Positions 2,274 to 34,709 of a stretch of DNA of 37,616 nucleotides are shown here, in pieces. Position 1 is the first letter of the stretch. Each line of letters begins with the position of its first letter. The position numbers were made by a program, and so were the translations under genes. The notes beneath the pieces were generated by a model. That model had not been told where the DNA came from, ran no database searches, and was given only the letters and a program-made list of their open reading frames with translations. This DNA comes from a virus. Where the stretch lies: the UHGV virus genome UHGV-0218797. One strand, given 5' to 3'.

Positions 2274-4571
2274 TTAGAGAGGTATGTTAATGTCCACAAA
2301 ATCTGCCGTTTCTTCGGTTTCAATACAGTTGCGGGATATCGCATCCAGACCATAGAAAACCGGATTAACATTTCCGGGATGGTAATAGGTGTACTCTCCG
2401 GTTCCCGCATAAACGGAAACATCGCCAGCCGTATTATTCACCACATCAGCCACCCATTGAGAAACGCCAACCCCGGTTTCAAAATTGCTGACCCCCCGGC
2501 ATGTGGCAATTTGATACAAATTATACCCCTGACCTCCGGTGAGCATGAGCCAGAGCGCGCCCGTATCCTCATACTTGGCAATATTGGCTGCAGATTTCTG
2601 CTGGTAAATAACCTTGGCAATCGTCCACGGAACAGGCTCATTCTGACTGGCTGGGATGAAGCTGGTGGTGGTTTTCACCTGCCAGCCAGCCGCGGCTGTC
2701 AGCGCGTAAATCTCACGCACCTTTATTATATAACCGTTGCGCTGTGTGTCCCTGACATTGTCAAAAGTAATATCCAGAATTTCACCGTGATTGTAAGCCA
2801 AACCGTTTGCCGGGATAATACTGTAAGAATCTATGGAAAGGTCGGGACGAATCGTCTTCCCGCCGCGTCCGATACCAAAGGACAACTTTGCGGCATTGGT
2901 AGCGCGCCAAAGGAAAGAGAACCCGGCGAAACTGGAATAATTCCATTGAGGATTACTCACCTCAAATCTCGCCTGAATGGTCGAATGAGTACCCTTGGGA
3001 ACCTTAATACCAGCCAAATGGTAGGGAACTGTTTTGGCGACTGTCGAAGATCCTGACGCGGTAATGGCATCCGTATTGAGGAAAGCATTAGAGGTTAGGA
3101 TGCCCGTCACGCCGGCCATGCCCGCGGCATACAGACGGTTGACCGCCCCCGTATCGGTCGCCGCTCCCACGGCCAGCGGAATGTTCACCCCTCCGTTGGC
3201 GTTAATAGCCCCGGCCGCCGTCAGACCTCCGGCCAGCGTCATGTTGCCGGAGGCGTCCACTTGAGGCATGGCCGCCAGGGCGTTAGCCGCCGCCGTCGCG
3301 GAGTTGGCCGCGCTGGTGGCAGAGGTTGCGGCATTATCGGCAGCCGTGGCCGCGGCAGCGGCGGACTGGCCAGCCGTCTGCGCCGCAGCCTCGGCGGTCG
3401 CGGAAGATTGGCGCACATCCCGTCCCAGGCTATCCAGTTGCCGCGCGGTGGCCAGCTCCATCCCTCCCAGGGTGATGCCGTCGTCATAGTCCACTACTAC
3501 GGTCATCAGCGGGGCCATCGTGCCGTTCACGGTGGGCGGGTTGGTCACCTCCGTCACCAGGCCGCGCCCAGGGACGGACGGAGTAAGCACGGCGTGCATG
3601 CCCAGCGCGTAGGGCGTCATCTCGGTCCCTTCGCATACCTGGATAATGATCTTGTCCCCGCGTTGCAACGTAACGCCCGGCGTAAATACCCACGTGGCCG
3701 TCTGGCCGCTGGAAAGGTTGGACACATAGGCGGAGGTGCCAATCAGGCTGTAAGCGCCGTCCGTCAGCCGCCAAATCCGCAGGCAATATTGATTAGCGGC
3801 CGGGGTTTCAAAAAAATACACGGTGGAAATGCTTCTCAGGCGGCAGCTGTCGGGCAGATGCCCCGCCAGAATCTCGTCTCCCCAAGTGAACGCGTAGCCT
3901 CCGACGATGGTCCAGGTGTCGGCGGCATCTCCACTGGACAAGGTGGATTGCCCGGTCACCGCTTCCAATTCCACGCCCGCATCCTTGAGCGCGGCCGGCA
4001 ATTTATTTGCTACAGCCTCATTGACCAATTCCCCGCTTTCCACCTGTTCTTCCAGCGTTTCCACAAGCCGCGTTGCTTCATCCCGGGCCGCTTCGGCCTG
4101 TCGTACAAGTTCCTCGACCACAATGGACGGGTTTTCCACAATGGTTACGGAGCCGTCTTCCGTTTCGGGGATGGAGACATCAAGAGCGCCGGCCACGGCC
4201 GCGGCCTCATTCGTTCCATCCGGAGGCGTAACGCGGGACACTACATGCACGGATCCCTTCAACAAGGGGTATTCTTTTCCCGATGCGTCGGTCAGAAAAA
4301 TATCATATGCGCCGCATCCGGCGGCCAGCCTCGGCCATGTCACCAATGCCGTACTCACCCCCGTAACGGCACAGTCCAGCATGATCACCCCATCCTGTAC
4401 CACCGCGCCGCGTAGCGTCATGCCGCTGATGTCCATATCCTCACCGGAAGGAGAAATAAAATGCAGCGCAAGAGACTGCGGCAGGGATTCCGTGGCGTGT
4501 ACGTTGTAGTTGGCAGCTTGCCTCATGCACGCATTATCGCCCCAACGTGAGGGAGGGTACAACAATGTCAA
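2274..4571 (-). CDS. Tail fibre or receptor-binding protein, 765 aa.
   Basis: Long Ala/Thr/Ser-rich low-complexity stretch (AAAQTAGQSAAAAATAADNAATSATSAANSATAAANALAAM) and a Gly-rich beta-type C-terminal region typical of fibres. TTG start embedded in the GTCAAAATGGGCTACG motif. Confidence 0.55.
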   Translation of the reverse strand: MTLLYPPSRWGDNACMRQAANYNVHATESLPQSLALHFISPSGEDMDISGMTLRGAVVQDGVIMLDCAVTGVSTALVTWPRLAAGCGAYDIFLTDASGKEYPLLKGSVHVVSRVTPPDGTNEAAAVAGALDVSIPETEDGSVTIVENPSIVVEELVRQAEAARDEATRLVETLEEQVESGELVNEAVANKLPAALKDAGVELEAVTGQSTLSSGDAADTWTIVGGYAFTWGDEILAGHLPDSCRLRSISTVYFFETPAANQYCLRIWRLTDGAYSLIGTSAYVSNLSSGQTATWVFTPGVTLQRGDKIIIQVCEGTEMTPYALGMHAVLTPSVPGRGLVTEVTNPPTVNGTMAPLMTVVVDYDDGITLGGMELATARQLDSLGRDVRQSSATAEAAAQTAGQSAAAAATAADNAATSATSAANSATAAANALAAMPQVDASGNMTLAGGLTAAGAINANGGVNIPLAVGAATDTGAVNRLYAAGMAGVTGILTSNAFLNTDAITASGSSTVAKTVPYHLAGIKVPKGTHSTIQARFEVSNPQWNYSSFAGFSFLWRATNAAKLSFGIGRGGKTIRPDLSIDSYSIIPANGLAYNHGEILDITFDNVRDTQRNGYIIKVREIYALTAAAGWQVKTTTSFIPASQNEPVPWTIAKVIYQQKSAANIAKYEDTGALWLMLTGGQGYNLYQIATCRGVSNFETGVGVSQWVADVVNNTAGDVSVYAGTGEYTYYHPGNVNPVFYGLDAISRNCIETEETADFVDINIPL

Positions 4572-4582
4572 AATGGGCTACG
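4567..4582 (+). repeat. Copy a of the 16-nt motif GTCAAAATGGGCTACG.
   Basis: Exact 16-mer at the TerL/fibre junction. The fibre TTG start is the reverse complement of the CAA inside the motif. Confidence 0.8.
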
Positions 4583-4589
4583 AACAGTC

Positions 4590-6107
4590 CTAAATGGGAT
4601 AAAATTTCCCCGTATGTTTGACGGCGTGCTGACTCTTGCCCACAATAGGCCTGTTGCCCTCTCCTGTCCAAACTCCGGAAGATCCACGAAAGGAAGCCCA
4701 TATAGCCCCCAGCAAGGCGTCCGCGCGATCAGGAGAAGACAGGTTGCGAGCCTTCATTTTCTCCTTCTTCTCGTTCCTGAGCCTGGAATCGTCCGCATAT
4801 TCTTTCTTCCGGGTAGTCAACTGCACGAAAAGCGTCTTGTCCGGCCGCCTGGACCTGATATGCACTCGCCCGGTCATGAGTTCCAGTCCGGCGTCATTCC
4901 AGCATTCCGCCGAGAGATTGATGTAGCGGTCGCGGTCTTCCGGAGGGTTGTTCCCAAAGAACTCATTCGGATACCAACCTGATTCATTAAAATCGCTGAT
5001 GACAGCCAGGCCCATGCCCGGAGCGTCCACCCACAAATCACAATCCGCAATGCCCAGCCCCTTGAGGGTGGCAATGCACTTGCGGACACTCTGCACCGTG
5101 TCCCGCTGTCGTTCCGCGTATTCAATCCAGGCTTCGTTTCCGTCGCAGATGGCAAGGACTGTTTCATCCCCGCCCGCGGCAATGTCCAGGAAGGCCACGG
5201 GGCGCCCCCTGCGCGGCTCGTAGGGCTGCCGCTGACCCCATTCCAGTTTTCCAGGGTCAATGATGTACAAATCTCCTTCCAGCGTGAATTCCGCCAGCAC
5301 GACGGAACGGAAATAGGAATCATCCTCATTACCCCCCACACGGGCCAGAATGCGGTCAATGCGCTCCTGGGAGATATGGGGGCAATCAAAGGCCGTTACC
5401 ACCATCGGACAGAAGAGGTCTTTTTCCTCGTGGAAACAGCGATAAAATTGCCCTTCCGGCTTGCCTGGGGATGAAAGGTAGATGCAGAATTGAAGCGTAC
5501 ATCGTTCAATGGCGTCAAAGATTTCATCAGGAACCGTCTTTGCCTCGTCCACCACGAAAAACACGGGGGAAGAAGGATCATCCCCGGTAAACTCGTCAAC
5601 GTCAAACAGACGGGCTTTCTTCTCGCTGCGGGGGTCTTCCTCCTCCTGTTCCTTCCGCTCATCCTTGAATTCGTCCGTCACACGCCCGTGCCAGCCTTCC
5701 GCCTTCCCGGCGTGGTTGGTGGAAAAGCCTTCGATGAATCCCCCTTCCGGCGTTTCCACGCGGCAATTCTTGAGCCATTTCCAGCCCGCAAGGGATGGGT
5801 TGTTCCGGTGCCGTTCCAGGGCAGGCCAGAGCTGGTTTTTTACCTGGCGCCATGAGCCGGACGTAATAGGCATACGCCCACGGGGGTAGCGCCAGAGAAA
5901 CCATAGGGCAAGGATACCAATTACCTTGTCCGTCTTGCCGGAACCATTAGCAGCGCGCAGGGCAACCCGCTTTCCCCGGGCAGCCCTTTCAAGGGCCCGC
6001 ATCTGCCATTTGTACAGCCCTGTTTCCCCCAGAATCAGGGCGGCAAAGATGACGGGAGAGTCTTCCGGCCTGACCGGAGCCCCTAGCTTTCTTCCTCTTC
6101 GGACCAT
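4590..6107 (-). CDS. Terminase large subunit.
   Basis: Walker A AANGSGKT, Walker B FFVVDEAK, and a C-terminal nuclease-like region. Overlaps the upstream TerS. Confidence 0.85.
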   Translation of the reverse strand: MVRRGRKLGAPVRPEDSPVIFAALILGETGLYKWQMRALERAARGKRVALRAANGSGKTDKVIGILALWFLWRYPRGRMPITSGSWRQVKNQLWPALERHRNNPSLAGWKWLKNCRVETPEGGFIEGFSTNHAGKAEGWHGRVTDEFKDERKEQEEEDPRSEKKARLFDVDEFTGDDPSSPVFFVVDEAKTVPDEIFDAIERCTLQFCIYLSSPGKPEGQFYRCFHEEKDLFCPMVVTAFDCPHISQERIDRILARVGGNEDDSYFRSVVLAEFTLEGDLYIIDPGKLEWGQRQPYEPRRGRPVAFLDIAAGGDETVLAICDGNEAWIEYAERQRDTVQSVRKCIATLKGLGIADCDLWVDAPGMGLAVISDFNESGWYPNEFFGNNPPEDRDRYINLSAECWNDAGLELMTGRVHIRSRRPDKTLFVQLTTRKKEYADDSRLRNEKKEKMKARNLSSPDRADALLGAIWASFRGSSGVWTGEGNRPIVGKSQHAVKHTGKFYPI

Positions 6108-6901: not shown

Positions 6902-8497
6902 TTATTGTATCAATTCACAGTCAATGATCAATTTCCCGTTCTGATTATGGAATTGGAGAAATTTGAGGGTTCCTCCCTTCTGGATGATGATTTCATCTTC
7001 ACTGCTAAAATAGGTTTGCGGGCTAAGGCCGTCCCAGTCCTTACCGGCCCCTGCCCCGAATCTGGAAAAGGGCTCTGCATAAATGGCACGGGTTTTCTTC
7101 TTCAGGAGAATTCTGAACAACACGGGACGGTTCATGAATCCTTTCCCCTCCGCTACGGCAGCAGACATGAAACCTTCGTCTTTGAGAGGGTTTCCCACTA
7201 CGGAGAGATTGAGCATATCAACCAGCTCGTCTGTTATTTCTTCTCCTTTCCAGTTCAAAGCGTCTTTCAATTCCTTGTAAACCCCACAGCCACGGAAAAC
7301 AACCATGTCTTGAGGCACTTTGCATCTGTCAATGACTTTGGCGATCTGTTTCGCCTTGGCGTTGGACTTCCCCTTCCTCAAATCGTTGTTGATGCGGGCA
7401 TATCCATTTCCGGTGTAGGAAAACAAAGCGTTCTTTTCCAGTCTGGATGCCTTTGCCCACACTTCCCCGGTAACGCTTCGCAAAAGGTCATCAGCTTCCT
7501 TATCCGTCAACGGGGCAGGCATCTTCACCTTGGGGACATCTCCCAGGCTGACCGTGTGCGTGACGGCTGAGACTGGCGCAGGAATGGGAGCAGAGGGAAC
7601 CTTGATGACTTTCTCCGCCGTTTCCCTGGCCTTTTTCGCCACTTCCTGTGAGGGAAAGACAACCTCATCAGATTTGTCCTGTTTGACTCCCCAGCGGTCT
7701 TCATAGACCTTTTTCAATTTGGCCTTCAGTTCCTCCGGCAACTTCGCCGTACTGGCCTTCTTGCCGTACCCGTACCGTTCAATCAGGTCAATCCCGAAGC
7801 GCTCCGCACCCCTTGGACGCTTCAACGGCTCCCCGGGTTTGAGTAGTCCCAGCCGTTCGCATTCTTCCCGGGAAACAGGCTCCTGATCCATGTAGGAGTT
7901 GAAGCCGAACGGCGGCCAGGGGACCTCAAAGCCCCCGAGGCTGGCGGCGTTCATTTCGTCTGCCCAAAAAGTAAAGTCGGTTTTAAGCCGGACAGCATCT
8001 TCGTTGACGACATGAACAAGCCGCTTTGTCTTGGCTCCCGGAAAGCGGATGAACCGGAAAGCAGGCCATGCTTTGAGATTGGCTGGTTTCATGGATGCCT
8101 CCCATTGAGCAGCCCCAATGCTTTGCCGGACGTTGGTCTTGAAAATGAGCTTCAGACGGGCCAGAGCACCGATGTTTTTAATATCGTTGTGATACTTCGG
8201 GCCTTCGGCGTCCGGTGGAACAAGTCCCTCGGTTTGGAGCCATTGAAGTGCCTGGTTGGAAAAGTCCGCGGCGCTTCCTACCTTGATAACCGTTTCCCCA
8301 TTGGGTAAAGTCTCCTTTTCTCCTGTCAGATAATTCTTAATCAACCTGTGCAGCCGTTCCAGCAATCTGATATTCTCCACCTTGGAAGAGAAAAACTTGT
8401 TTTCCTTCATGGCAGCGTTCAGAGCAGCCCATTCCTTTGAATCCATGCCGGAGGGTGTGGGATGTTTTGCCAGGAATTTTTCCAGGGGTGTTACCAT
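6902..8497 (-). CDS. Head-morphogenesis-like protein (tentatively MuF/SPP1 gp7-like) fused to a C-terminal ADP-ribosyltransferase domain. Resembles a MuF-type polymorphic toxin.
   Basis: The C-terminus carries YTGNGYARINNDLR, then R in VVFRG, an STS-like GFMSAAV and an ExE-like SSEDEII. This is the R-S-E arrangement of C3/iota-like mono-ART domains. The N-terminal PP..F motif is weakly MuF-like. Confidence 0.6.
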   Translation of the reverse strand: MVTPLEKFLAKHPTPSGMDSKEWAALNAAMKENKFFSSKVENIRLLERLHRLIKNYLTGEKETLPNGETVIKVGSAADFSNQALQWLQTEGLVPPDAEGPKYHNDIKNIGALARLKLIFKTNVRQSIGAAQWEASMKPANLKAWPAFRFIRFPGAKTKRLVHVVNEDAVRLKTDFTFWADEMNAASLGGFEVPWPPFGFNSYMDQEPVSREECERLGLLKPGEPLKRPRGAERFGIDLIERYGYGKKASTAKLPEELKAKLKKVYEDRWGVKQDKSDEVVFPSQEVAKKARETAEKVIKVPSAPIPAPVSAVTHTVSLGDVPKVKMPAPLTDKEADDLLRSVTGEVWAKASRLEKNALFSYTGNGYARINNDLRKGKSNAKAKQIAKVIDRCKVPQDMVVFRGCGVYKELKDALNWKGEEITDELVDMLNLSVVGNPLKDEGFMSAAVAEGKGFMNRPVLFRILLKKKTRAIYAEPFSRFGAGAGKDWDGLSPQTYFSSEDEIIIQKGGTLKFLQFHNQNGKLIIDCELIQ

Positions 8498-8790
8498 AGA
8501 GGCAATTCTGGATGTTCAAAGGGGGGAGGTTCAATCTTGCCAAATTGGGCTACGTGATGTTCCAGAATGCGGACGGCGGGAAGACGGTAGAGTCCGGCGG
8601 ATTCCAGAGCATTGATAATGCTGTTGGCGCGTTCTTCGGCTTCCTGTCTGTCGTTAGTACCAAGTCCCAGCTCGACAAGTTTGCCTTTCTTTCTGGGATC
8701 CACCAGAAGCGTTAAGCGCAGTTTGTAGGATCCGGGCTTTCCTCGCCGCGTCGGCTTGTTTTTTCGCAGGGATGGTTTGGGGGGTCTCAT
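8491..8790 (-). CDS. Hypothetical basic 100-aa protein. ATGA-coupled to dnaB, and its stop overlaps the MuF-like start.
   Basis: The ORF sits between strongly supported genes. Its start ATG overlaps the helicase stop codon. Confidence 0.3.
   Translation of the reverse strand: MRPPKPSLRKNKPTRRGKPGSYKLRLTLLVDPRKKGKLVELGLGTNDRQEAEERANSIINALESAGLYRLPAVRILEHHVAQFGKIEPPPFEHPELPLW
8539..8554 (+). repeat. Copy c, a variant: GCCAAATTGGGCTACG.
   Basis: Two mismatches versus the consensus. Lies about 45 nt upstream of the MuF-like/ART start. Confidence 0.6.
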
Positions 8791-11681: not shown

Positions 11682-11883
11682 ATTTTAAGTAGACTTCAAT
11701 CGCTTTAAGAAATCCTTTGTATTGGCCCGCTAAATAGCGGTAATACCCAAATGAGAAAATGGATACTAAAACAACTATAAGTTGCGCAATATCAAATATC
11801 ATTGCTTCCTCCTTTCTGCTCAAGCTCCCAGGGCCATTGTTTAATCTCGTCCACATCGTAGGGAAGTGCATTCCCATATACAT
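11650..11883 (-). CDS. Small membrane protein, 77 aa, in an AT-rich patch.
   Basis: Hydrophobic segment IAQLIVVLVSIFSFGYY. Confidence 0.3.
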   Translation of the reverse strand: MYMGMHFPTMWTRLNNGPGSLSRKEEAMIFDIAQLIVVLVSIFSFGYYRYLAGQYKGFLKAIEVYLKYEEKENEDDA

Positions 11884-12157
11884 CCTGAAGATATATTTTC
11901 CCCCGGTCTACGTTTGTATAAAGTACTGTATGTGTATCATCACTAAAACGAACCATGACGTTATCACCCTGCCCTAACCGCATGATGGGGGGAAACTTGG
12001 AGACATATTCTTTCCATCCATCATGATGGTTGAATCCAATCTTGCAGGTAGGGCAACCAAACAATTTGGCCGTAGTAGCGTAATATGGATTAGTTCCTAT
12101 TGCGCATAAGAAATATTCTGAATTTGTTCCGCACAGCGGGCATTTAGGCGTTTTCAT
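11792..12157 (-). CDS. Zinc-ribbon protein, 121 aa.
   Basis: N-terminal CPLCG and C-terminal CPTC pairs. Confidence 0.4.
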   Translation of the reverse strand: MKTPKCPLCGTNSEYFLCAIGTNPYYATTAKLFGCPTCKIGFNHHDGWKEYVSKFPPIMRLGQGDNVMVRFSDDTHTVLYTNVDRGKIYLQDVYGNALPYDVDEIKQWPWELEQKGGSNDI

Positions 12158-16587: not shown

Positions 16588-16689
16588 TCTTTTTACGTAA
16601 AAATCATGAACACGTCAACACACATTTCATGTTTTATGCGTGATATTTTCTAATCAATAGGTTGACTTTTCATGAAATGTGCGTAAAAT
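16588..16689. promoter_or_regulatory. Divergent immunity promoters and operators.
   Basis: Rightward promoter: TTGACT at 16662-16667, a 16-nt spacer, then TAAAAT at 16684-16689. This ends 6 nt before the repressor ATG, which implies a leaderless transcript. Leftward promoter, read on the minus strand: TTGACG (16611-16616), a 17-nt spacer, then TAAAAA (16588-16593). A palindromic TCATGA core sits in each spacer (16604-16609 and 16669-16674; the latter lies within TTTCATGAAA). The 11-bp inverted repeat CACATTTCATG (16621-16631) pairs with CATGAAATGTG (16671-16681). Confidence 0.4.
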
Positions 16690-19426: not shown

Positions 19427-19717
19427 ATGAAACTATTCTCTCTCATTTTAGCTGTTATTTCCCTCACTTCATTCTCGGAGGCGCACCCTGGCGGCTTGGA
19501 CGCCAACGGCGGTCACTACAACCGCAAAACGGGGGAATACCACTACCACCGGAAACCAGCGACCAAAACAGCAGCGGAAGAAAAAACGTACTGGATCAGC
19601 TCAACGGGCAAGACCCATAACAAAAACTGCCGGTACTACCGGGCTTGCAAAGGGCGAGCCAGCGATACGCCCAGCGGTGTGAACTGCAAGATTTGTGGGG
19701 GATCGAAGAAACAATAA
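19427..19717 (+). CDS. Secreted YHYH-motif protein, 96 aa.
   Basis: Signal peptide MKLFSLILAVISLTSFSEA, followed by GGHYNRKTGEYHYH. Confidence 0.5.
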   Translation: MKLFSLILAVISLTSFSEAHPGGLDANGGHYNRKTGEYHYHRKPATKTAAEEKTYWISSTGKTHNKNCRYYRACKGRASDTPSGVNCKICGGSKKQ

Positions 19718-19752
19718 ATATTTATTTGAATAAGGAAAAATACAATAATATT

Positions 19753-20616
19753 ATGAAGATATACGTTTATACTGTTACAGAAGAAAATCATCTTCAACCA
19801 CTTAAAGACATTCTTCACTTGGTAAAAGAAGAATCCTTAATGGCCAGAAATCGTCCTTTTTTAGGAGATTTTATGCGACTCAATAATATAATATGGAATG
19901 AAGAAAAAAATCTATTTTTTATGGATTTTATTAGAGTAAGAATGAGTCACGGTCCCGCTATAGGGGGACTTCAACGGGAAATAGAGGGATTTAACTTCAA
20001 TGAGGATGAGGGTTTCTGTGAAGAGACAGCAGCTATTTATTCTCCTGAACATCACGTATGGGTTGATCAATATAATTTTGCTGGTATCAGAAGTAGTAAA
20101 ATGGCAAACTATCTTTCAGACTTTTATCCTAATCGTCATGCTACTTTCCGTTTTGAACCTATTTTAAATCATGACATTGAGCAAAAATTATTGAATAAAA
20201 CGCTTTTTACAAAAATCGATTTTAAAATGCGACCTCATGTCATTACTGAAGCAGATCGAGAAGAAAATATTTCTGTCCGAAGAGCAGTTGAAATGGCAGA
20301 AGAGAATGGTTCAGCTTATGTTAAAATCACCATAGGAGCAGAGAGATACCACAGTTTGGCGAATCGTGCTGCGTCTTCTCTAGCTCATTGGTTACTAAGA
20401 AAAAGTCAACAATCTGAATATGCTATTGATAGAGCATGTATTACTGGAAAAGATTCAGAACAAGATCCTTCAGAAACCCTAGATTTACTAAGAGCAAGAG
20501 AATATAAAGAATGCGAAATTACAACTGCCTCTGATAGACGCTTCCCACGTGATGACAGATGGAATGCGTTAGAACGATCATTCCATGAATGGAGACGAAA
20601 CGGATTATTCGAATGA
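19753..20616 (+). CDS. Unknown cytoplasmic 288-aa protein. Candidate sensor of a two-gene module (positionally RexA-like).
   Basis: Good AAGGA RBS. ATGA-coupled to the downstream 4-TM gene. No recognisable family. Contains a possible Rx6H (NRAASSLAH) motif. Confidence 0.5.
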   Translation: MKIYVYTVTEENHLQPLKDILHLVKEESLMARNRPFLGDFMRLNNIIWNEEKNLFFMDFIRVRMSHGPAIGGLQREIEGFNFNEDEGFCEETAAIYSPEHHVWVDQYNFAGIRSSKMANYLSDFYPNRHATFRFEPILNHDIEQKLLNKTLFTKIDFKMRPHVITEADREENISVRRAVEMAEENGSAYVKITIGAERYHSLANRAASSLAHWLLRKSQQSEYAIDRACITGKDSEQDPSETLDLLRAREYKECEITTASDRRFPRDDRWNALERSFHEWRRNGLFE

Positions 20617-21077
20617 ATACACTTTTTGCAGAACGATTCTGGCCTTTGGTAGCTGGCATTTTAGGCACAGTGCTTGGCATTGTTCTGTATAATTTCAATT
20701 ATGTTTTATATATATCATCAAGTATTCTATCTTCGGGAATTACAGTAGGTGCAATTTTCGCAGGATTTGATGTTACACACAAAACATTATTGATTACTCT
20801 TAACTCGAATAAAATTAAACAAATAGAAAACGTAAAAAGCTATTATAACTACCTTATTGGTTACATGAATGCCAATTTAAAAGGAGCTCTTATTTTTGTT
20901 ATTTATTCCTTTATACTGCTCCACATGATAGATAGTAACCAAATATTTAATTTGAAAGAGCATTGGTGGAAGCCTTTTGCCTTTGCCCTATGGTTAGGGT
21001 GCGGTACGTATATGTGTACAGCATTTTGGAGAATTAGTTCCATTTTTACAGTTCTTCTAAAGAAAAAATCTGTTTAA
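20613..21077 (+). CDS. 4-TM membrane protein, about 154 aa (positionally RexB-like).
   Basis: Four hydrophobic helices. Start codon overlaps the upstream stop (ATGA). The track start at 20589 is also possible. Confidence 0.5.
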   Translation: MNTLFAERFWPLVAGILGTVLGIVLYNFNYVLYISSSILSSGITVGAIFAGFDVTHKTLLITLNSNKIKQIENVKSYYNYLIGYMNANLKGALIFVIYSFILLHMIDSNQIFNLKEHWWKPFAFALWLGCGTYMCTAFWRISSIFTVLLKKKSV

Positions 21078-21365
21078 CCTCATTTGAAATACCAGACAGA
21101 AACTCTTAAAAATAAACGTCTTTATCTTTGATAAGCCCTAATATGTTAGCGTACCGATTTCATAATAATTCTCCTAAAAATCTCTTTTTACAGAACAAGA
21201 TGTTTCACAGCTTCAGCTATGGCTTCAGAATACGGATGTACGTACACCCGTCCAATCTCTTTGAAATATGCTCCAAAATCACTCAACAGAGGCTAATGAG
21301 CCTCCATCTTCAGGGAAAATCCGCCAGTAGGCGGACACATCTTCTGGGTTGCAAGCCGCAAATAA

Positions 21366-22442
21366 CTAAAAAGTGAGTTTTCTAGCCGCTTCCTTACTGT
21401 GTTCGTCCCGAAGGTGTCCATATACCTTCATAGCCAATGCTCCGCCGTCACGATGCCCCAGCCATTTAGCCACCGTAGGAATATCAATGCCTGCCTCAAT
21501 GCAGGACGTGGCGAAGAAATGCCGTAAATCGTGAATCCGGACGTGAGGCAGTCCAAGCCTGATACACGCGTTTGTAAGGGCCTTTCGGGGGCTTTCTATG
21601 GCAAATACCGGGTCATCTGGGCTATTCCCCCGCCTTTCTCTTCGGAGGCTTTCTATCACCTCCGCCAGAGATGCGTTAATGTACAGGGTCCGGCGTGAGG
21701 TGGCATGTTTGATATCAGGCACGGAAATGGACTCTTTCCCGATATCTCCCCACACCAAGCGCCGGACTTCCTCAATACGTAACCCTGAATAAGCCAGGAA
21801 AGCGATCATATCCGCCGCTTCGGAATATAGCCCCTTCTTTTGCCACTTCCTTAATATAGGGGCTTTTTTCACTTCCTCAACGATTCTTCGGAAATCTTCT
21901 TTTTCCGGAACGTTAAGATTTGAACTCCTCAAAGTCATCCGTTCAAGCTTGGCTGCTGGATTGCTCTTGATACTTCCTGCTTCCTGAAGCATGGAAAAAA
22001 TATTTTTCACAACAGCGAGTGTTCCGTTTGCTGTTCGTGCAGACACAGACAACGCATCTTTTTTCCACCAAGCCCGGCACATTTGTTCCGTGATGGCCTC
22101 TGCTGCAATATCACGAGCAACAAGCTTTTTAGCGCGGCTGGAAAAGAACTTGATGGATTCTACAGCGGCCGGCTTCAAATGGGGGCGCATTTCCTGCCGC
22201 TGGACGTACATATCAACCGCCAAATACCAAGACACGGATTCCACGGGTAATTCATCCCTCCCTTGCTCCGCCAGGAACCCGGCCAGCCTGGAAAGGGCTT
22301 CCGTCAACACGCGCGTTTTAAGAGATTTTTTCACCGTTTTTCTTCCGGTATCAATTCGGGCATAGAAAATTTCCGACTCTTTTGACCGATACAAGTTCGG
22401 ATAATCCGTCGCAACAAGGGTGTTTTTCATACTTCCAAGCAT
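21366..22442 (-). CDS. int: Tyrosine-type site-specific integrase.
   Basis: C-terminal HDLRHFFAT...LGH...Y provides the catalytic H-x-x-R and Y. Lies adjacent to the tRNA-derived att core. Confidence 0.9.
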   Translation of the reverse strand: MLGSMKNTLVATDYPNLYRSKESEIFYARIDTGRKTVKKSLKTRVLTEALSRLAGFLAEQGRDELPVESVSWYLAVDMYVQRQEMRPHLKPAAVESIKFFSSRAKKLVARDIAAEAITEQMCRAWWKKDALSVSARTANGTLAVVKNIFSMLQEAGSIKSNPAAKLERMTLRSSNLNVPEKEDFRRIVEEVKKAPILRKWQKKGLYSEAADMIAFLAYSGLRIEEVRRLVWGDIGKESISVPDIKHATSRRTLYINASLAEVIESLRRERRGNSPDDPVFAIESPRKALTNACIRLGLPHVRIHDLRHFFATSCIEAGIDIPTVAKWLGHRDGGALAMKVYGHLRDEHSKEAARKLTF

Positions 22443-22479
22443 GCCCTGCGGCCCTTAAACCGCAAGAATAATCTCTTTT

Positions 22480-22503
22480 TACGGACAACCATACGGACAA
22501 CCA
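22480..22503 (+). repeat. Tandem arm-type repeat, TACGGACAACCA x2.
   Basis: Exact 12-bp tandem duplication about 60 bp from the att core on the integrase side. Confidence 0.6.
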
Positions 22504-22510
22504 ACACAAA

Positions 22511-22553
22511 GACAAAAGAAAAGAAAACCCCGCAAACCTTTCAGTTTACGGGG
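22511..22553 (-). terminator. Rho-independent terminator downstream of the tRNA-derived core, minus strand.
   Basis: 10-bp stem CCCCGCAAAC / GTTTACGGGG with one mismatch and a 6-nt loop. On the minus strand it is followed by TTTTCTTTTCTTTT. Confidence 0.55.
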
Positions 22554-22560
22554 TTTATAA

Positions 22561-22610
22561 TGGCACGTCCAACTGGATTCGAACCAGTGACCCACTGCTT
22601 AGAAGGCACT
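22561..22610 (-). other. 3' 50 nt of tRNA-Arg(UCU), from the anticodon arm to CCA. Interpreted as the att core.
   Basis: The reverse complement reads AGTGC-CTTCTAA-GCAGT (anticodon loop with U33, anticodon TCT, A37), then GGGTC, then the T-arm ACTGG-TTCGAAT-CCAGT, then TGGACGT-G-CCA. No D-arm or 5' acceptor strand is present upstream. Confidence 0.6.
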
Positions 22611-22743
22611 TACGGACGTTAAACTTATTTTAACTTTTCTAGCATTTTCAATGGGTTATTTAATCCTCCCCCCTTTCATAATTGTCCGCACTTATCCGTA
22701 TTTGACCCTATTTAACCCCTTATACGGACAACCTACGGACAAC
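22611..22743. repeat. Arm-type repeat cluster on the far side of the core.
   Basis: TACGGACGTT (22611-22620). Inverted copies TGCGGACAAT and TACGGATAAG (reverse complements of 22681-22690 and 22691-22700). Direct tandem TACGGACAACC and TACGGACAACT (22723-22743). Confidence 0.55.
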
Positions 22744-22870
22744 TTGCAGTGCGTCACAGCTTCTTGCTCGTGTTCTCGGTAATTCTTTCCAGAAGGAAGA
22801 GTGCCAGAAAAAATCAGCCTTGTCTATTTTGGACTTGCAGAAAAATACTATCTGGAAATGATAAAAAGCA

Positions 22871-23401
22871 ATGGAACAGTATTACATTGCAACGGAGGAA
22901 GGACAGACGGAAGGGCCGTATTCCTTTGCATCACTAGAAACTTTCTACGCCGAAGGCAAGATAACACAAAAAAGCCTTGTTTGCATTGCTGGCGGTCAAG
23001 AGTGGGTGCAGTTTTGGACAATTTTAGAGCAAGAGCGGAAGAAAGAAGTTCAACCCTGTGAAGAACCTAAAAAACAAGCCTTGGAAAGACTGATGAATGA
23101 ATATGATCCCATTCCAAAGGAGCAGCCCAAGAAAGAGTTACAGAAGGATATTAAACCGTTGGAAATAACCGTTGAAGGCTTATTCCGTATTGCAGGTATT
23201 CTTGCTCTACTCGCTGGGGTTGTGCTGCTTTTTTCAACTGCAAAAGATCGGCAACCAGTCTTAGGCTTCATTTACCTACTTTCCGGAGCCTTCTCCTGCC
23301 TTGGATGCTTCTGGTGTGCCAAAGTCATTAAATTACTTTCTAATACCGTCGAGCTACTCACTACAATTTCCAAGAGAATGTATAATATTGACAAGGATTA
23401 A
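22871..23401 (+). CDS. DUF4339 (GYF-like) N-terminal domain protein with two C-terminal TM helices.
   Basis: YYIATEEGQTEGPYSFASLETFYAEGKITQKSLVCIAGGQEWVQF matches the DUF4339 pattern. Two hydrophobic helices follow. AT-rich. Confidence 0.55.
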   Translation: MEQYYIATEEGQTEGPYSFASLETFYAEGKITQKSLVCIAGGQEWVQFWTILEQERKKEVQPCEEPKKQALERLMNEYDPIPKEQPKKELQKDIKPLEITVEGLFRIAGILALLAGVVLLFSTAKDRQPVLGFIYLLSGAFSCLGCFWCAKVIKLLSNTVELLTTISKRMYNIDKD

Positions 23402-23622
23402 AACGTTCCTGCCCCTAATTAGGGGCTCTATGGTTAGAAGCATCTTAATTCTGGTGCGTTATAGCCAGAGAACGCTTATTCTCTCGAAAACGACTAAAAC
23501 CTTTGTATTTCCAGTTTTCTAAAGTTCTGCTGCTATATTCTTGCTATTCTCAACACCAACAACATTTCTGTGCCTCACATTTCTAGAGAACATTCTATGT
23601 ATGAAATATCATACATTATTTT

Positions 23623-24369
23623 ATGAAAGAGATACTTACTATAGGAGAACAATTACTAAGAACAACTGTCTTAATTAATATTAAAAATAAAGATTCCTTA
23701 ACATCTGGAACAGGTTTTTTATTTTACTCTCATAAAAATATATTTTTGGTAACGAATAGACATGTTGTTGAAGATTCAAAAGAAATAGAATTGAAATTTT
23801 ATGGTCAAGATGATTTTCTTGTTATAAAAAATAATTTTATAACAAGTTTGCAGTATGATATAGCTATTTGTATATTGAACGATATTCCTTCCTCTGCAAA
23901 AACATTAACTCCAAATCAAATTCCAAATCGGAAGCAAGTGGAGAATTTTGATGCCATTGAAGATATTCTGTTCATTGGTTATCCTACAGGAATATACGAT
24001 ACATACAATAACTCCCCTATTGCACGAAAAGGTATAACTGCTACACCTATTTCGTTAAATTATGAGGGAAAGTATCAATTTCTCATTGATGCTTCCATCT
24101 TTCCAGGAAGTAGCGGAAGTCCTGTTTTTCTTATTAAATATTTAAAATCTACCAGCAAAAAAATTATACAAGTTTTTTTATTGGGCATTATAACTGAAGG
24201 ATATAGTTATGGAAATTCTATAAAAAACAGCTTTTCTCCTCCACCTATCCCTATCATAATATCTAAACAGATGATTAACCTTGGACTCGTCATTAAATCT
24301 AGTGAACTCATCAAGCTTATCAATGATAGTAGAAATCCCTACTCTGTTAGAAAGGTTGACTATCAATGA
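23623..24369 (+). CDS. Cytoplasmic trypsin-like (S1/Trypsin_2) serine protease.
   Basis: Catalytic triad context TNRHVV (His), YDIAIC (Asp) and PGSSGSPVF (Ser). No signal peptide. AT-rich. Confidence 0.65.
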   Translation: MKEILTIGEQLLRTTVLINIKNKDSLTSGTGFLFYSHKNIFLVTNRHVVEDSKEIELKFYGQDDFLVIKNNFITSLQYDIAICILNDIPSSAKTLTPNQIPNRKQVENFDAIEDILFIGYPTGIYDTYNNSPIARKGITATPISLNYEGKYQFLIDASIFPGSSGSPVFLIKYLKSTSKKIIQVFLLGIITEGYSYGNSIKNSFSPPPIPIIISKQMINLGLVIKSSELIKLINDSRNPYSVRKVDYQ

Positions 24370-31036: not shown

Positions 31037-31041
31037 GGTTG

Positions 31042-33600: not shown

Positions 33601-33601
33601 A

Positions 33602-34699
33602 TTACTTGTTCAGGTTATTGAGTTCGGTTTCAAAGGAGCTGCGAAGAGCCGCGGTTCCCGTGACGGGTTCTTTTGGGGAGCCTTCCGGCTTGCCGGCATT
33701 CACGTCATCGAATGCGGGATTTTTCGGCAGGGCGTTCAACTGCTTGCTGGCGGCAATATAGTCTTCCGTCAGGGCTCGTTCCCAAAAGGTCTTGGATGCT
33801 TCATCCTTCGGGGCGATTTTGCCCGCAGCAATGGCATCGGCAACGTCCTGGACGGCGCGTTCCTTCACCTGCTTCCTGGATGCGGCAATTTCTTCCTGGC
33901 ATTTCGCCAGCTCCTTCTTGCTTGCTTCCAATTCGTCGGAGCTGGCCTTGCCTTTGTCCTGCAGGGCCTTGATGCGCTCCAACACGATAGCCTCGGCATT
34001 TTCAGCCTTGGCTTCTTCCTCGGTCAAAATGCCGAGGGCAACGAGTTTAGTGATGTCCATGTCTCGGTTGGTTGTATGGTTGTCTTGCTGGTCGAGGCCC
34101 TCCTTGGGCTTCTCAAGGTCTCTATTGTCGCCCGGTTTCCCGGGGTCTTCAACGTCGTCAAAATGGGCTACGTCGCCCTCCATTCGGCTGGCGGCAATGC
34201 GTTCGATGTCGTCAAATGCGGGGTCATTGACCAAGGAACCTACTTCTATGGATTCCGGCAACAGGCCGAGGATTTCCCCGGTTCCCTTGTCGCGCCGGAA
34301 GCGGGGGCTGTGATAGCCGTAATTGCCGCCTTCCACGTCCGTTCTTCCCTTCTCCGTCCATCCTTCCAGTTCCAACACAACGCCTTTTTCCTCGTTCCAC
34401 ACAAACCGTCCCGGCTTGTAAGAGGCGGGCCCCATCTCATGATCATAGAGCCCGACCGGTTTGACGTTGCTGGATAGCTTGGCTTCCAGGTCGGCATTGA
34501 GCCGGGGAACGCAGTCGGACGTTACCCGCACCACACACGTTCCCGGCTGGCCGTTGAGCGAGCATTTAATAGTATGTTCTCCTTTGGGGGCCCACAGGAT
34601 AGCCATGGGAGCCTTGCCGTGGTTGCCGGCTACCGTCGTTATCAGCGTACTCATGCCCCCATGATGAGGCACAGTGGAGGTATGGGGCAATAGACGCAA
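33602..34699 (-). CDS. Prohead protease with a nested C-terminal scaffold (Mu I/Z-like arrangement).
   Basis: N-terminal globular domain followed by an acidic coiled-coil C-terminus. TTG start embedded in the conserved motif. Internal Met (MEGDVAHFDD) next to a second copy of the motif. Confidence 0.5.
   Translation of the reverse strand: MRLLPHTSTVPHHGGMSTLITTVAGNHGKAPMAILWAPKGEHTIKCSLNGQPGTCVVRVTSDCVPRLNADLEAKLSSNVKPVGLYDHEMGPASYKPGRFVWNEEKGVVLELEGWTEKGRTDVEGGNYGYHSPRFRRDKGTGEILGLLPESIEVGSLVNDPAFDDIERIAASRMEGDVAHFDDVEDPGKPGDNRDLEKPKEGLDQQDNHTTNRDMDITKLVALGILTEEEAKAENAEAIVLERIKALQDKGKASSDELEASKKELAKCQEEIAASRKQVKERAVQDVADAIAAGKIAPKDEASKTFWERALTEDYIAASKQLNALPKNPAFDDVNAGKPEGSPKEPVTGTAALRSSFETELNNLNK
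34157..34172 (+). repeat. Copy d of GTCAAAATGGGCTACG.
   Basis: Exact 16-mer inside the protease/scaffold gene, just downstream of an in-frame internal Met. Confidence 0.8.
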
Positions 34700-34709
34700 A
34701 ATGGGCTAC
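34696..34709 (+). repeat. Copy b, GCAAAATGGGCTAC.
   Basis: The 13-mer core CAAAATGGGCTAC (34697-34709) is exact; 34696 is a flanking G. Overlaps the TTG start of the protease gene, directly after the lipoprotein moron. Confidence 0.75.

What the first reader, a model, noticed from the sequence alone, without database searches (positions are those of the whole stretch)
4567..34709. 16-nt motif GTCAAAATGGGCTACG present four times in one orientation at late-gene starts and module boundaries
Exact 16-mers lie at 4567-4582 and 34157-34172. The same 13-mer core lies at 34697-34709, and a 2-mismatch variant at 8539-8554. A specific 13-mer is expected far less than once by chance in 37.6 kb. All copies are on the plus strand, while the overlapping genes are on the minus strand. 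Copies a and b overlap the TTG start codons of the tail-fibre and protease genes. In each case the start codon is the reverse complement of the CAA inside the motif. Copy d sits 12 nt after an in-frame internal Met that could start a nested scaffold protein, as with Mu I/Z. Copy c lies about 45 nt upstream of the MuF-like/ART start. A related half-copy, CCCATTTAG, closes terL. The positions coincide with junctions where synteny is atypical: terL to fibre, moron to protease, and replication to MuF-like. The motif could be a late-gene translational or regulatory element. It could also be a short boundary sequence that mediates modular recombination.
Basis: seen in the sequence. Interest (0 to 1): 0.55.

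Follow-up and report, generated by a model that had tools for sequence, protein, structure and literature searches.

The report
Akkermansia phage late-promoter upstream element
The repeated 16-base motif is most likely the upstream recognition element of four late-gene promoters in a temperate phage of the gut bacterium Akkermansia muciniphila, placed so that transcription would start at or near the genes' ATG codons; this is an undescribed variant of a familiar kind of phage control, not a recombination signal or a start-codon motif.

Summary
There are four same-orientation copies: 4567-4582, 8539-8554, 34157-34172 and 34695-34710. All local genes are on the minus strand, so the functional reading is 5'-CGTAGCCCAWTTTG-3'.

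The "TTG starts" are ORF-extension artefacts. The true ATGs lie 43, 44 and 43 nt after the motif's last G. Each copy is followed by a weak -35-like TTGnnn, a 17-18 nt spacer and a -10-like hexamer (GATAAT, CAGAAT, CATCAT, GACAAT). In three copies the hexamer sits 6-7 nt before the ATG. This looks like sigma-70-type, activator-dependent promoters making leaderless mRNAs.

The window is an A. muciniphila temperate phage. In relatives the motif and the -10-to-ATG block are conserved while the spacer and flanks vary. More distant or recombinant lineages carry different motifs at the same positions: TTAGCCATAAAAT, GAAACACATATCCAG... and CTCCTGCCCC.

The copy inside the protease gene lies in the linker before a conserved Met that begins the scaffold-like domain. 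In one lineage the internal copy is followed by TATCAT, 6 nt, then exactly that Met. I infer an intragenic promoter for a nested scaffold gene.

The activator is unidentified. A ~100-aa ORF after dnaB is a candidate with mixed evidence. There are no transcript data.

The parts
4567..4582 (-). Upstream promoter element, copy 1 (sense CGTAGCCCATTTTGAC). It lies in the terL / fibre-like gene intergenic region, at about -56 to -41 relative to ATG 4526.
   Evidence: It is conserved 16/16 in relatives whose spacer and terL 3' end diverge.
4557..4562 (-). -35-like hexamer TTGTAC of the post-terL promoter.
   Evidence: TTG is conserved in relatives. L168/L171 have TAGACA at the same offset.
4533..4538 (-). 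-10-like hexamer GATAAT, 6 nt before ATG 4526.
   Evidence: The block TTGGGG(C/T)GATAATGCGTGC-ATG is invariant in relatives.
2274..4526 (-). 750-aa fibre-like late gene. Its real start is ATG 4526-4524, not TTG 4571.
   Evidence: The L143 and L140 relatives have unrelated upstream sequence but the same ATG.
8539..8554 (-). Upstream promoter element, copy 2 (sense CGTAGCCCAATTTGGC). It is embedded in the 3' end of the 99-aa ORF. Its last core G (8541) is 44 nt before ATG 8497.
   Evidence: The core is conserved in relatives that differ on both sides. It is degenerate in L176 and L177.
8505..8534 (-). -35-like TTGAAC (8534-8529), 18-nt spacer and -10-like CAGAAT (8510-8505) of the MuF-ART / terS / terL promoter.
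6902..8497 (-). MuF-like / ADP-ribosyltransferase gene (ATG 8497), first gene of the packaging operon. Its ATG overlaps the stop of the 99-aa ORF (ATGGTAA).
34695..34710 (-). Upstream promoter element, copy 3 (sense TGTAGCCCATTTTGCG). It is followed by -35-like TTGCCC (34690-34685), -10-like CATCAT (34666-34661) and ATG 34654.
   Evidence: In L161, L165, L167 and L170 homology with the window begins at the motif, 3-12 nt after the stop of the 234-aa gene.
33602..34654 (-). Mu-I-like head protease / scaffold gene (350 aa). Its real start is ATG 34654, not TTG 34699.
34157..34172 (-). Upstream promoter element, copy 4 (sense CGTAGCCCATTTTGAC). It lies inside the protease gene and encodes D-V-A-H-F-D in the variable linker.
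   Evidence: The peptide changes VAHFD -> LARFA -> LAIKS in step with each lineage's DNA motif.
34114..34152 (-). -35-like TTGAAG (34152-34147), -10-like GACAAT (34129-34124) and the inferred start point (~34117-34116) of the intragenic promoter.
   Evidence: The -10-like hexamer is kept as GACAAT, AACAAT or GATGAT at the same offset in L170, L168, L171 and L169.
33602..34060 (-). Inferred nested scaffold ORF. It starts at the in-frame Met199 (ATG 34060, MDITKLVALGILT...) and is 152 aa long.
   Evidence: In L174 and L212 the lineage's motif is followed by TATCAT, 6 nt, then this Met codon.
8491..8789 (-). 99-aa ORF between dnaB and the first late promoter. It is a candidate, unproven, motif-specific activator.

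Best explanation
The motif is the upstream cis-element of four late promoters of a temperate Akkermansia muciniphila phage. In the direction of the genes each unit reads:

[C/T]GTAGCCCA[T/A]TTTG - 6 nt - weak -35 (TTGnnn) - 17/18 nt - -10-like nAnnAT - 6/7 nt - ATG.

Host sigma-70-type RNA polymerase would use the -10 hexamer. The motif, centred near -49, would be bound by a phage-encoded, sequence-specific activator that compensates for the poor -35. This keeps the promoters silent in the lysogen.

Transcription would start at or within a base or two of the A of the ATG. The MuF-ART/terS/terL unit, the fibre/lysis/portal unit and the protease unit would therefore begin as leaderless mRNAs.

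The fourth copy, inside the protease gene, would start a transcript for the in-frame scaffold-like C-terminal domain (Met199) and the downstream capsid genes. That would raise scaffold and capsid output relative to protease.

Shown: the geometry, its conservation, its orientation rule and the lineage-specific motif alleles. Inferred: promoter activity, the start points, activator dependence and late timing. The activator gene is not identified; the ~100-aa ORF after dnaB is the leading candidate.
For: 1. Geometry. The last G of the core is 43, 44 and 43 nt from ATG 4526, 8497 and 34654. -10-like hexamers GATAAT, CAGAAT and CATCAT lie 6-7 nt before those ATGs, and GACAAT lies at the same offset in the internal copy. 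Only 8 of 43 gene starts in the window have such a hexamer, and all 3 motif-linked starts are among them (hypergeometric p about 0.005). None has a Shine-Dalgarno sequence at a usable distance.

2. The same phage has canonical sigma-70 early promoters. One is a leaderless arrangement for the S24 repressor gene: TTGACT-16-TAAAAT-6-ATG 16696.

3. Cappable-seq found that about 10% of A. muciniphila transcription start sites lie at annotated start codons, with -35/-10 type promoters (PMC4782308).

4. Footprint. In relatives, the motif and the -10-to-ATG block are conserved while the ~20-nt spacer and the upstream flank vary. For the post-terL site, mean pairwise identity is 0.92 for the motif, 0.49 for the spacer and 0.34 upstream. 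A ~700-bp NlpE moron is inserted exactly between the preceding stop codon and the motif.

5. Distant relatives (structural proteins 25-55% identical) keep TTAGCCC[A/G]TTTTG about 43 nt before the ATG of the post-terL gene, the protease gene and a 1065-aa late gene, and in the protease linker. Their -10-like hexamers are CATGAT, AATGAT and CATGTT, 6 nt before the ATG.

6. Motif alleles at the same positions:
- L172: CTTAGCCATAA[A/C]AT at four sites, including one on the opposite strand before an opposite-strand gene.
- L143/L230: GAAACACATATCCAG.CCC.G.TATTTACG at the post-terL and protease sites, in a phage whose dnaB is 98% and fibre gene 95% identical to the window's at the translated (tblastx) level.
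- L174/L212: CTCCTGCCCC at four sites, each with TAnnnT 34 nt downstream.
Because two closely related phages, presumably of the same host, carry different alleles, the trans factor is most likely phage-encoded.

7. Internal copy. It lies in the variable linker, and its peptide changes track the DNA allele. In L174 and L212 it is followed by TATCAT, 6 nt, then the conserved scaffold Met.
Against: - There are no transcript, 5'-end or binding data, so every functional step is inferred.
- The -35 hexamers are poor (3/6), and the generic promoter scan did not flag these sites.
- No Mor/C, Ogr, sigma or other known late-regulator family was found among the early ORFs.
- The candidate 99-aa protein has no significant fold or sequence match. 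It gives only sub-threshold DUF6538 hits.
- One short contig (L118/L046) pairs the other small-ORF allele with a window-type post-terL motif.
- The copy before MuF-ART is degenerate in two relatives (L176, L177).
- L168 and L171 carry a conserved antisense copy inside a PBECR1-domain gene that the model does not explain.
- The L143-type lineage shows no internal copy.
- The motif's frequency in the host chromosome could not be measured.
Confidence: 0.68

Rival explanations
1. RNA-level element. The motif acts within long polycistronic late transcripts as a processing site, ribosome standby or translation enhancer, or a nut/put-like antitermination signal for SD-less genes.
For: The three downstream genes lack Shine-Dalgarno sequences. 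The sites lie inside a co-directional gene array, so read-through transcripts would contain the motif. The strict orientation fits an RNA signal as well as a promoter.
Against: Folding of eight sites gives no shared structure and mostly near-zero z-scores (-0.04 to -1.6, with one exception at -2.9). The motif is unpaired or paired differently at each site. There is no compensatory change when the motif changes from A to G in L171. No Rfam family matches. What is conserved with the motif is a -10-like hexamer at promoter spacing, not a ribosome-binding sequence: the 6 nt between the hexamer and the ATG vary among sites.
Confidence: 0.12
2. Operator for a phage repressor or other negative regulator, or for a host DNA-binding protein, rather than an activator site. 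The adjacent promoters would be intrinsically active and the motif would be used to silence them.
For: Sequence alone cannot give the sign of regulation. Lineage-specific alleles fit any phage-encoded DNA-binding protein.
Against: The site lies upstream of the -35 region (about -55 to -43), where activators usually act, and does not overlap the -35 or -10. The -35 hexamers are weak with an 18-nt spacer, which suggests a need for activation. The early-region operators near the repressor gene look different, for example the palindrome TTTTTACGTAAAAA at about 16600. Allele differences between closely related phages, presumably of the same host, argue against a host factor.
Confidence: 0.1
3. Module-boundary (linker) sequence that promotes homologous recombination between mosaic phages.
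For: Flanks are exchanged next to the sites. The NlpE moron abuts the motif. The fibre gene is replaced from about 4510 in many relatives. L143 and L140 replace the sequence upstream of ATG 4526.
Against: Breakpoints are not consistently on the motif: they fall at the -10/ATG in L143 and inside terL in L118. The distance to the -10-like hexamer and the ATG is fixed. Orientation follows the gene even on the opposite strand. One copy is intragenic, in a linker, with no module junction. Different motif alleles occupy the same functional positions. Breakpoints at operon starts are expected anyway.
Confidence: 0.06
4. Chance, or a coding-driven repeat: a shared peptide VAHFD/VAQFG with no function at the DNA level.
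For: Two of the four copies are inside ORFs. Within the window alone the statistics are only moderate.
Against: Two copies are non-coding. The coding copies lie in poorly conserved protein segments, and their peptides change to follow the lineage's DNA motif. The motif is conserved across phages with 25-55% protein identity.
Confidence: 0.02

Closest known systems
[quoted passage not shown]
   Same: Both have four late promoters in a phage with Mu-type head genes. One lies directly upstream of the I (protease/scaffold) gene. Both have recognisable -10 hexamers with poor or absent -35 hexamers, and a conserved activator site upstream of or overlapping the -35 region. Both use host sigma-70 RNA polymerase (PMC2582627 and PMC4461284 abstracts; details of the C site are from general knowledge).
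   Different: There is no sequence resemblance. The element here is asymmetric rather than a dyad. No Mor/C-family protein was detected. The inferred start coincides with the ATG (leaderless). One promoter is intragenic. The rest of the genome is not Mu-like: it has an integrase, an S24 repressor, terS/terL and no transposase.
P2/186/P4 late promoters activated by the Ogr/B/Delta zinc-finger proteins
   Same: Both have several late operons, each preceded by a conserved element centred near -55, with a small phage-encoded activator (general knowledge).
   Different: That element is the dyad TGT-N12-ACA. Here the core is asymmetric, and CGT-N11-ACA occurs in only one copy. No Ogr-like protein was found. 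One 121-aa ORF (11792-12157) has only a sub-threshold zinc-ribbon hit.
Leaderless mRNAs (lambda cI from PRM; about 10% of A. muciniphila start sites)
   Same: A -10 hexamer lies 6-7 nt before the ATG with no Shine-Dalgarno sequence. The host is documented to make leaderless transcripts (PMC4782308). The same phage's repressor gene has the same layout with a consensus promoter.
   Different: Here the first genes of late structural and lysis operons would be leaderless, coupled to an upstream specificity element. No 5' ends have been mapped.
Nested scaffold genes in head protease genes (Mu I/Z; lambda C/Nu3)
   Same: The gene belongs to the Mu-like_Pro family (PF10123). A conserved in-frame Met begins the C-terminal scaffold-like domain.
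   Different: In the known cases the short product is attributed to internal translation initiation (general knowledge). Here a copy of the late-promoter element sits in the linker. In L174 and L212 it would give a leaderless mRNA that starts at the nested Met.
Conserved boundary or linker sequences at module junctions of mosaic (lambdoid) phages
   Same: Both are short conserved sequences next to places where flanking modules differ between relatives.
   Different: Here there is a fixed promoter-like geometry, an orientation rule, an intragenic copy and lineage-specific alleles. Breakpoints are not centred on the motif.

Membership tests
Activator-dependent sigma-70-type phage late promoters (Mu C type) | Several copies, each just upstream of a late (structural, packaging or lysis) transcription unit and oriented with it. 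| tested here: met
   Four copies lie before the MuF-ART/terS/terL unit, the fibre/lysis/portal unit and the protease/capsid unit, plus one internal. An opposite-strand gene in L172 has the motif in its own orientation.
Activator-dependent sigma-70-type phage late promoters (Mu C type) | A recognisable -10 hexamer and a poor -35 at a fixed distance from the conserved element. | tested here: met
   An nAnnAT hexamer lies 30 nt (28-30 in relatives) after the core. The TTGnnn hexamers match 3/6 with a 17-18 nt spacer.
Activator-dependent sigma-70-type phage late promoters (Mu C type) | A cognate Mor/C-family activator encoded by the phage. | tested here: not met
   No Mor/C hit, or any known late-regulator hit, was found in Pfam or PHROGs for the early ORFs scanned.
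Activator-dependent sigma-70-type phage late promoters (Mu C type) | A dyad-symmetric activator site. | tested here: not met
   The core TAGCCCATTTTG is asymmetric. Only the protease site of L168/L171 has an inverted partner, GGGCTAA-N2-TTAGCCC.
Activator-dependent sigma-70-type phage late promoters (Mu C type) | Transcription is late and depends on the activator. | not testable with these tools
   This needs RNA time courses or reporter assays.
P2/186 Ogr-dependent late promoters | TGT-N12-ACA dyad centred near -55, with a zinc-finger activator. | tested here: not met
   CGT-N11-ACA occurs in one copy only. There is no Ogr-like protein. ORF 11792-12157 has only a weak zinc-ribbon hit, E 9e-4 and below the cut-off.
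Leaderless-mRNA promoters | A -10 hexamer 6-8 nt upstream of the start codon and no Shine-Dalgarno sequence. | tested here: met
   GATAAT-6-ATG, CAGAAT-7-ATG and CATCAT-6-ATG. No SD is present. The same holds at about 12 further sites in relatives.
Leaderless-mRNA promoters | A primary 5' end mapped at the A of the AUG. | not testable with these tools
   Only the host-level precedent is available: about 10% leaderless start sites in A. muciniphila (PMC4782308).
Nested scaffold within a head-protease gene (Mu I/Z, lambda C/Nu3) | A Mu-I-family protease with a C-terminal scaffold-like domain that begins at a conserved in-frame Met. | tested here: met
   PF10123 E 6e-17. M-D-I is conserved at the domain start in 17 aligned homologues. 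In the window it is Met199, at 34060.
Nested scaffold within a head-protease gene (Mu I/Z, lambda C/Nu3) | A separate short protein product is made. | not testable with these tools
   This needs proteomics or a Western blot.
Module-boundary recombination (linker) sequences | Mosaic breakpoints fall on the conserved sequence itself. | tested here: inconclusive
   At 34710 homology starts at the motif. In L143 it resumes at the -10/ATG, and in L118 the breakpoint is inside terL.
Module-boundary recombination (linker) sequences | No required relation to expression signals or gene orientation. | tested here: not met
   The distance to the -10 hexamer and the ATG is fixed, the motif follows gene orientation, and one copy is intragenic.
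nut/boxA- or put-type antitermination RNA; other known RNA families | A conserved RNA hairpin or a match to a curated family. | tested here: not met
   No common fold was found, and no Rfam hit in the window.
UP element (alpha-CTD site) | An A/T-rich tract at -40 to -60 without a specific G/C core. | tested here: not met
   The core contains an invariant GCCC, and other alleles (CTCCTGCCCC) are G/C-rich.

The most novel reading that the evidence does not exclude
Akkermansia phages carry a family of interchangeable late-regulation cassettes. Each would consist of a small (~100-135 aa) protein of a so-far uncharacterised fold, encoded just after dnaB, that acts as a monomeric late activator, paired with its own allele of an asymmetric promoter element. 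Late operons, including structural ones, would start as leaderless mRNAs. The scaffold protein nested in the protease gene would be produced from a dedicated intragenic, activator-dependent promoter, in some lineages as a leaderless mRNA starting at the nested Met. That would be a transcriptional solution to a problem usually ascribed to internal translation initiation.
Probability: 0.3. Interest if true: 0.6.

Novelty: new variant of a known kind. Interest (0 to 1): 0.42.

Why it matters
- Nothing is known about gene regulation in phages of Akkermansia muciniphila, a gut commensal being developed as a probiotic.
- If this reading is right, it gives the first late-promoter consensus for these prophages.
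- It corrects the start codons of three major late genes. Gene callers extend them to upstream TTG or GTG codons.
- It predicts leaderless late operons, and a promoter inside the protease gene that would set the protease-to-scaffold ratio.
- The lineage-specific motif alleles would be candidate orthogonal activator/promoter pairs for a genetically hard-to-engineer bacterium.
- The alleles would also explain which recombinant phages are viable.

Tried and rejected
- INPHARED phage collection, blastn distant mode on the protease-capsid region: no match.
- IMG/VR scan for the L168-type architecture (TTAGCCCATTTTG...ATnAT...ATG): 0 hits.
- The single metagenome scan with the same pattern: 11 hits, all single-copy, of mixed G+C and unrelated by tblastx, so chance matches.
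The motif's frequency in Akkermansia chromosomes could therefore not be measured.
- RNA folding of eight sites: no shared structure.
- Rfam and tRNA scans: nothing.
- Sigma-54, sigma-32 (CCCCATnT resemblance), ECF and Bacteroidetes-type (TAnnTTTG) readings of the motif were considered by eye and dropped. Nothing upstream of the motif is conserved, and the spacings do not fit.
- Reading the motif's own TTGAC as the -35: the spacing to the conserved -10-like hexamer would be 27 nt, and L172's allele lacks TTG.
- 99-aa ORF as a known DNA-binding fold: two AlphaFold models gave pLDDT 68-69 with a beta-beta-alpha-beta topology. Foldseek against PDB and BFVD gave no hit below E 0.01. A PDB sequence-profile search gave nothing. 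BLASTP against the phage's own integrase gave nothing. Pfam gave only sub-threshold DUF6538.
- A profile search for small-ORF homologues found none on the L168, L171 or L172 contigs. It also missed the L143 allele, so this absence is uninformative.
- Test for the 'upstream motif repeated in the protease linker' pattern in 26 more distant Mu-like protease loci: nothing significant beyond L212.
- The terL 'half-copy' CCCATTTAG: chance-level and not conserved.

Full report
OBSERVATION. The coordinates are right. GTCAAAATGGGCTACG is exact at 4567-4582 and 34157-34172. A 2-mismatch copy lies at 8539-8554. The 13-mer core recurs exactly at 34697-34709, within a 3-mismatch 16-mer at 34695-34710. All copies are on the plus strand. 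Shuffles expect 0.37 such matches. Three exact copies of any 13-mer appeared in 3 of 300 Markov shuffles. The repeat finder independently reports the four sites as a 36-nt family (D2). Taken alone the window gives only moderate significance. The weight comes from relatives.

WHAT THE WINDOW IS. The sequence is a temperate phage of Akkermansia muciniphila.
- A MAG contig of that species encodes an identical protease.
- 74 of the 87 IMG/VR stretches that carry the exact 16-mer are 80-99% identical relatives. Their alignments run across the window's ends, so the window is a circular permutation.
- All genes near the motif are on the minus strand, so the sense reading is CGTAGCCCAWTTTG.
- The gene order on that strand, is:
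  - an early promoter near 16600, recombination and replication genes, and dnaB (10172-8787);
  - a 99-aa ORF (8789-8491), then [motif];
  - MuF-like/ADP-ribosyltransferase (ATG 8497), terS and terL, then [motif];
  - a 750-aa fibre-like gene (ATG 4526), two small ORFs and a peptidoglycan-binding, endolysin-like gene;
  - (wrap) a Mu-type portal, an 87-aa ORF and a 234-aa ORF;
  - a plus-strand NlpE-like moron, then [motif];
  - a Mu-I-like protease/scaffold gene (ATG 34654) with [motif] inside it, then the major capsid and tail genes.

START CODONS AND GEOMETRY. The 'TTG starts' at 4571 and 34699 are only the furthest-upstream start codons of the open frames. The conserved starts are ATG 4526, 8497 and 34654.
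- Relatives with unrelated upstream sequence keep the same ATG.
- Protease homologues begin MSTLITTV or MIVTSV.
- The last G of the core lies 43, 44 and 43 nt before these ATGs.
- Each copy is followed, after 6 nt, by TTGTAC, TTGAAC, TTGAAG or TTGCCC. After a further 17-18 nt comes GATAAT, CAGAAT, GACAAT or CATCAT.
- In three copies, 6-7 nt then separate that hexamer from the ATG.
- Only 8 of 43 gene starts in the window have an nAnn[A/C]T hexamer at that offset. All three motif-linked starts are among them.
- None has a usable Shine-Dalgarno sequence.

This is the layout of a sigma-70-type promoter whose start point is the A of the ATG. The same phage shows that layout with consensus boxes for its S24 repressor gene: TTGACT-16-TAAAAT-6-ATG 16696. 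A canonical TTGACG-17-TAAAAA promoter faces the other way. Cappable-seq of a mouse gut community found -35/-10 type promoters in A. muciniphila, with about 10% of start sites at annotated start codons (PMC4782308).

CLOSE RELATIVES. I used loci retrieved through terL and the capsid protein rather than through the motif, to avoid ascertainment bias. In these loci the motif and the block from the -10-like hexamer to the ATG are invariant or nearly so. The ~20 nt between them and the sequence upstream vary. For the post-terL site, mean pairwise identity is 0.92 for the motif, 0.49 for the spacer and 0.34 upstream.

At the protease site, homology between the window and L161, L165, L167 and L170 begins at the motif. 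Those phages have the stop codon of the 234-aa gene 3-12 nt before it. The window and most close relatives have a ~700-bp NlpE moron inserted exactly between that stop and the motif. The motif therefore marks the upstream edge of something that insertions must respect.

DISTANT RELATIVES AND MOTIF ALLELES. Protease homologues led to contigs whose structural proteins are only 25-55% identical to the window's.
- L170 and L169 keep GTAGCCCATTTTG or [T/A]TAGCCCATTTTC, both upstream of and inside the protease gene.
- L168 has TTAGCCCATTTTG before the post-terL gene and before a 1065-aa late gene. It has TTAGCCCATTTAC before the protease gene and TTAGCCCGTTTTG inside it.
- L171 has TTAGCCCGTTTTG at all of these sites. 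In both lineages CATGAT, AATGAT or CATGTT lies 6 nt before the ATG.
- L172 has a different sequence, CTTAGCCATAA[A/C]AT, at the post-terL site, upstream of the protease gene and inside the protease gene. It also has a copy on the opposite strand in front of an opposite-strand 667-aa gene. There CATCAT, CAAGAT or TAAAAT lies 6 nt before the ATG.
- L143 and L230 are adjacent pieces of one prophage. Its dnaB is 98% and its fibre gene 95% identical to the window's at the translated (tblastx) level. It has no TAGCCC copy. It carries CTGAAACACATATCCAG[T/C]CCC[A/G]G[T/C]TATTTACG at the post-terL and protease sites, 60 nt from each ATG, with CATCAT or CATGCT 6 nt before the ATG.
- L174 and L212 have CTCCTGCCCC at four sites, each with TAnnnT 34 nt downstream.

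So the positions are conserved while the sequence is lineage-specific and uniform within a genome. That pattern fits cis-sites matched to a phage-encoded DNA-binding protein. It argues against a host factor or a generic host repeat, because two closely related phages, presumably of the same host, differ.

THE INTRAGENIC COPY. In an alignment of 17 homologues the protease domain ends at ...IERIAAS. A variable linker follows. The C-terminal scaffold-like domain begins at a conserved Met (M-D-I...). That Met is Met199 in the window, ATG 34060.
- The motif lies in the linker, and its peptide changes VAHFD -> LARFA -> LAIKS exactly as the lineage's DNA motif changes.
- The -10-like hexamer (GACAAT, AACAAT) is kept at the same offset, with no indels, in an otherwise gappy region.
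- This means selection acts on the DNA.
- In L174 and L212 the internal CTCCTGCCCC is followed by TATCAT, 6 nt, then exactly the conserved Met codon (MDEIKKLL).

I therefore infer an intragenic promoter for a nested scaffold gene, and probably for extra transcription of the capsid genes downstream. In the window the inferred start (~34116) would leave a 56-nt leader.

MECHANISM (inferred). Host RNA polymerase with its primary sigma factor uses the weak -35/-10 pair. A phage protein bound at about -55 to -43 supplies the missing affinity or isomerisation step, which gives late timing and silence in the lysogen. The first gene of each unit is translated from a leaderless mRNA.

WHO BINDS? No Mor/C, Ogr, sigma or other known late regulator was found. 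The 99-aa ORF between dnaB and the first late promoter is the best candidate.
- In favour:
  - It sits where late activators often sit.
  - Divergent homologues occupy the same slot in L143 (96 aa; hhalign probability 95%, E 3.6e-8) and in L174 (135 aa, 37% identity).
  - In every long contig where both can be seen, the allele of this ORF matches the motif allele.
  - Each allele's 3' end carries its own motif type.
- Against or neutral:
  - Two structure models (pLDDT 68-69) found no fold match.
  - Pfam gives only sub-threshold DUF6538 hits, in 3 of 12 members with best E 0.004.
  - The 7.2-kb contig L118/L046 pairs the 96-aa allele with a window-type post-terL motif. It may be a recombinant or a chimeric assembly.
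  - The early regions of L168, L171 and L172 could not be fetched.

I put this assignment at about one in three.

RIVALS.
- A recombination boundary sequence does not explain the fixed promoter geometry, the orientation rule, the intragenic copy or the alleles. Breakpoints are near the motif but not consistently on it.
- An RNA element is not supported by folding or by Rfam, but it cannot be excluded without 5'-end data.
- A repressor operator is possible in principle but fits the position poorly.
- Chance or coding constraint is excluded by the comparative data.

COMPARISON WITH KNOWN SYSTEMS. The closest analogue in logic is phage Mu. [quoted passage not shown] P2-type Ogr-dependent promoters are similar in plan. 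The present case is not a member of either family. The site is asymmetric and unrelated in sequence, and no C- or Ogr-like protein is present. The leaderless layout has precedents in lambda cI and in the host itself. New here are:
- the element itself and its allelic series;
- leaderless first genes of structural and lysis operons;
- a late-promoter copy inside the protease gene, in front of the nested scaffold start.

I rate it a new variant of a known kind, of moderate interest.

LIMITS. Everything functional is inferred from sequence. Conserved antisense copies in a PBECR1-domain gene of L168 and L171 remain unexplained.

Noticed in passing
window 34711-35414 (NlpE-like ORF 34884-35321, plus strand; terminator-like hairpin 35353-35378): A plus-strand moron encodes an NlpE N-terminal-domain lipoprotein (PF04170, E 5e-25). 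It has its own promoter-like site and terminator. It is inserted exactly between the stop of the 234-aa gene and the protease promoter element, and is absent in L161, L165, L167 and L170.
   Followed up: partly
window 16696-24369: This is a low-G+C (37-45%) lysogeny and cargo island. It holds an S24 repressor with a consensus leaderless promoter and an OLD/AriA/GajA-like ATPase (17515-19233; PADLOC Old, E 1e-23). It also holds a DUF6731 protein and a tyrosine integrase (21366-22442, minus strand). A GYF_2 protein and a trypsin-like protein matching the candidate defence family PDC-S45 (23623-24369, E 4e-59) complete it. This looks like prophage-borne anti-phage defence.
   Followed up: partly
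window 6902-8497: The first gene of the packaging operon fuses a MuF-like (minor head) N-terminal part to a C-terminal ADP-ribosyltransferase exoenzyme domain (PF03496, E 7e-21). It could be an injected toxin or effector.
   Followed up: no
L168 about 8589-8601 and L171 about 8575-8587 (plus coordinates; motif on the minus strand): A copy of the lineage's motif (TTAGCCCATTTTG or TTAGCCCGTTTTG) lies in antisense orientation inside the PBECR1-domain gene. It is conserved between the two lineages. No clear -10-like hexamer sits at the usual offset, and it is unexplained.
   Followed up: partly
L171 9958-9984 and L168 9935-9960: At the protease promoter of these lineages the element has an inverted partner (CAATCTGGGCTAA-AT-TAGCCCGTTTTG). 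This hints that TTAGCCC is a half-site that can be bound as a dimer at this one promoter.
   Followed up: no
L212 2393-2460: Three tandem 22-nt repeats, each containing the L174-type element (CTCTCCTGCCCCGCTGCCTG), lie upstream of the protease promoter. The element has been amplified in one relative.
   Followed up: no
L118 / L046 (IMGVR_UViG_3300039381_000079): This contig is L143-like (88%) up to about position 5442 inside terL, then window-like. It combines the 96-aa small-ORF allele and an ACATATCC element with a TAGCCCATTTTG element after terL. It is either a real recombinant with mixed promoter types or a chimeric assembly.
   Followed up: partly
window 4567-4592: terL and the fibre-like ORF are in the same reading frame. 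They are separated only by two in-frame TAG codons (4592-4590 and 4580-4578, the second inside the motif). This is probably coincidence, and it is why the ORF lister extends the fibre ORF to TTG 4571. Stop-codon recoding was not examined.
   Followed up: no
L016 (IMGVR_UViG_3300005935_000672), minus strand about 5444-5760: An unrelated viral contig was picked up by the exact 16-mer. It has several repeats of roughly 70-225 nt spacing, each containing TAGCCCATTTTGA... and ending in TTCTAGCAACTGCA. It has no similarity to the window.
   Followed up: no
window 16590-16625 (minus-strand early promoter region): A perfect palindrome, TTTTTACGTAAAAA, overlaps the -10 of the early promoter, and a related TGCGTAAAAT overlaps the repressor gene's -10. 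These are likely repressor operators, and they are unrelated to the late element.
   Followed up: no
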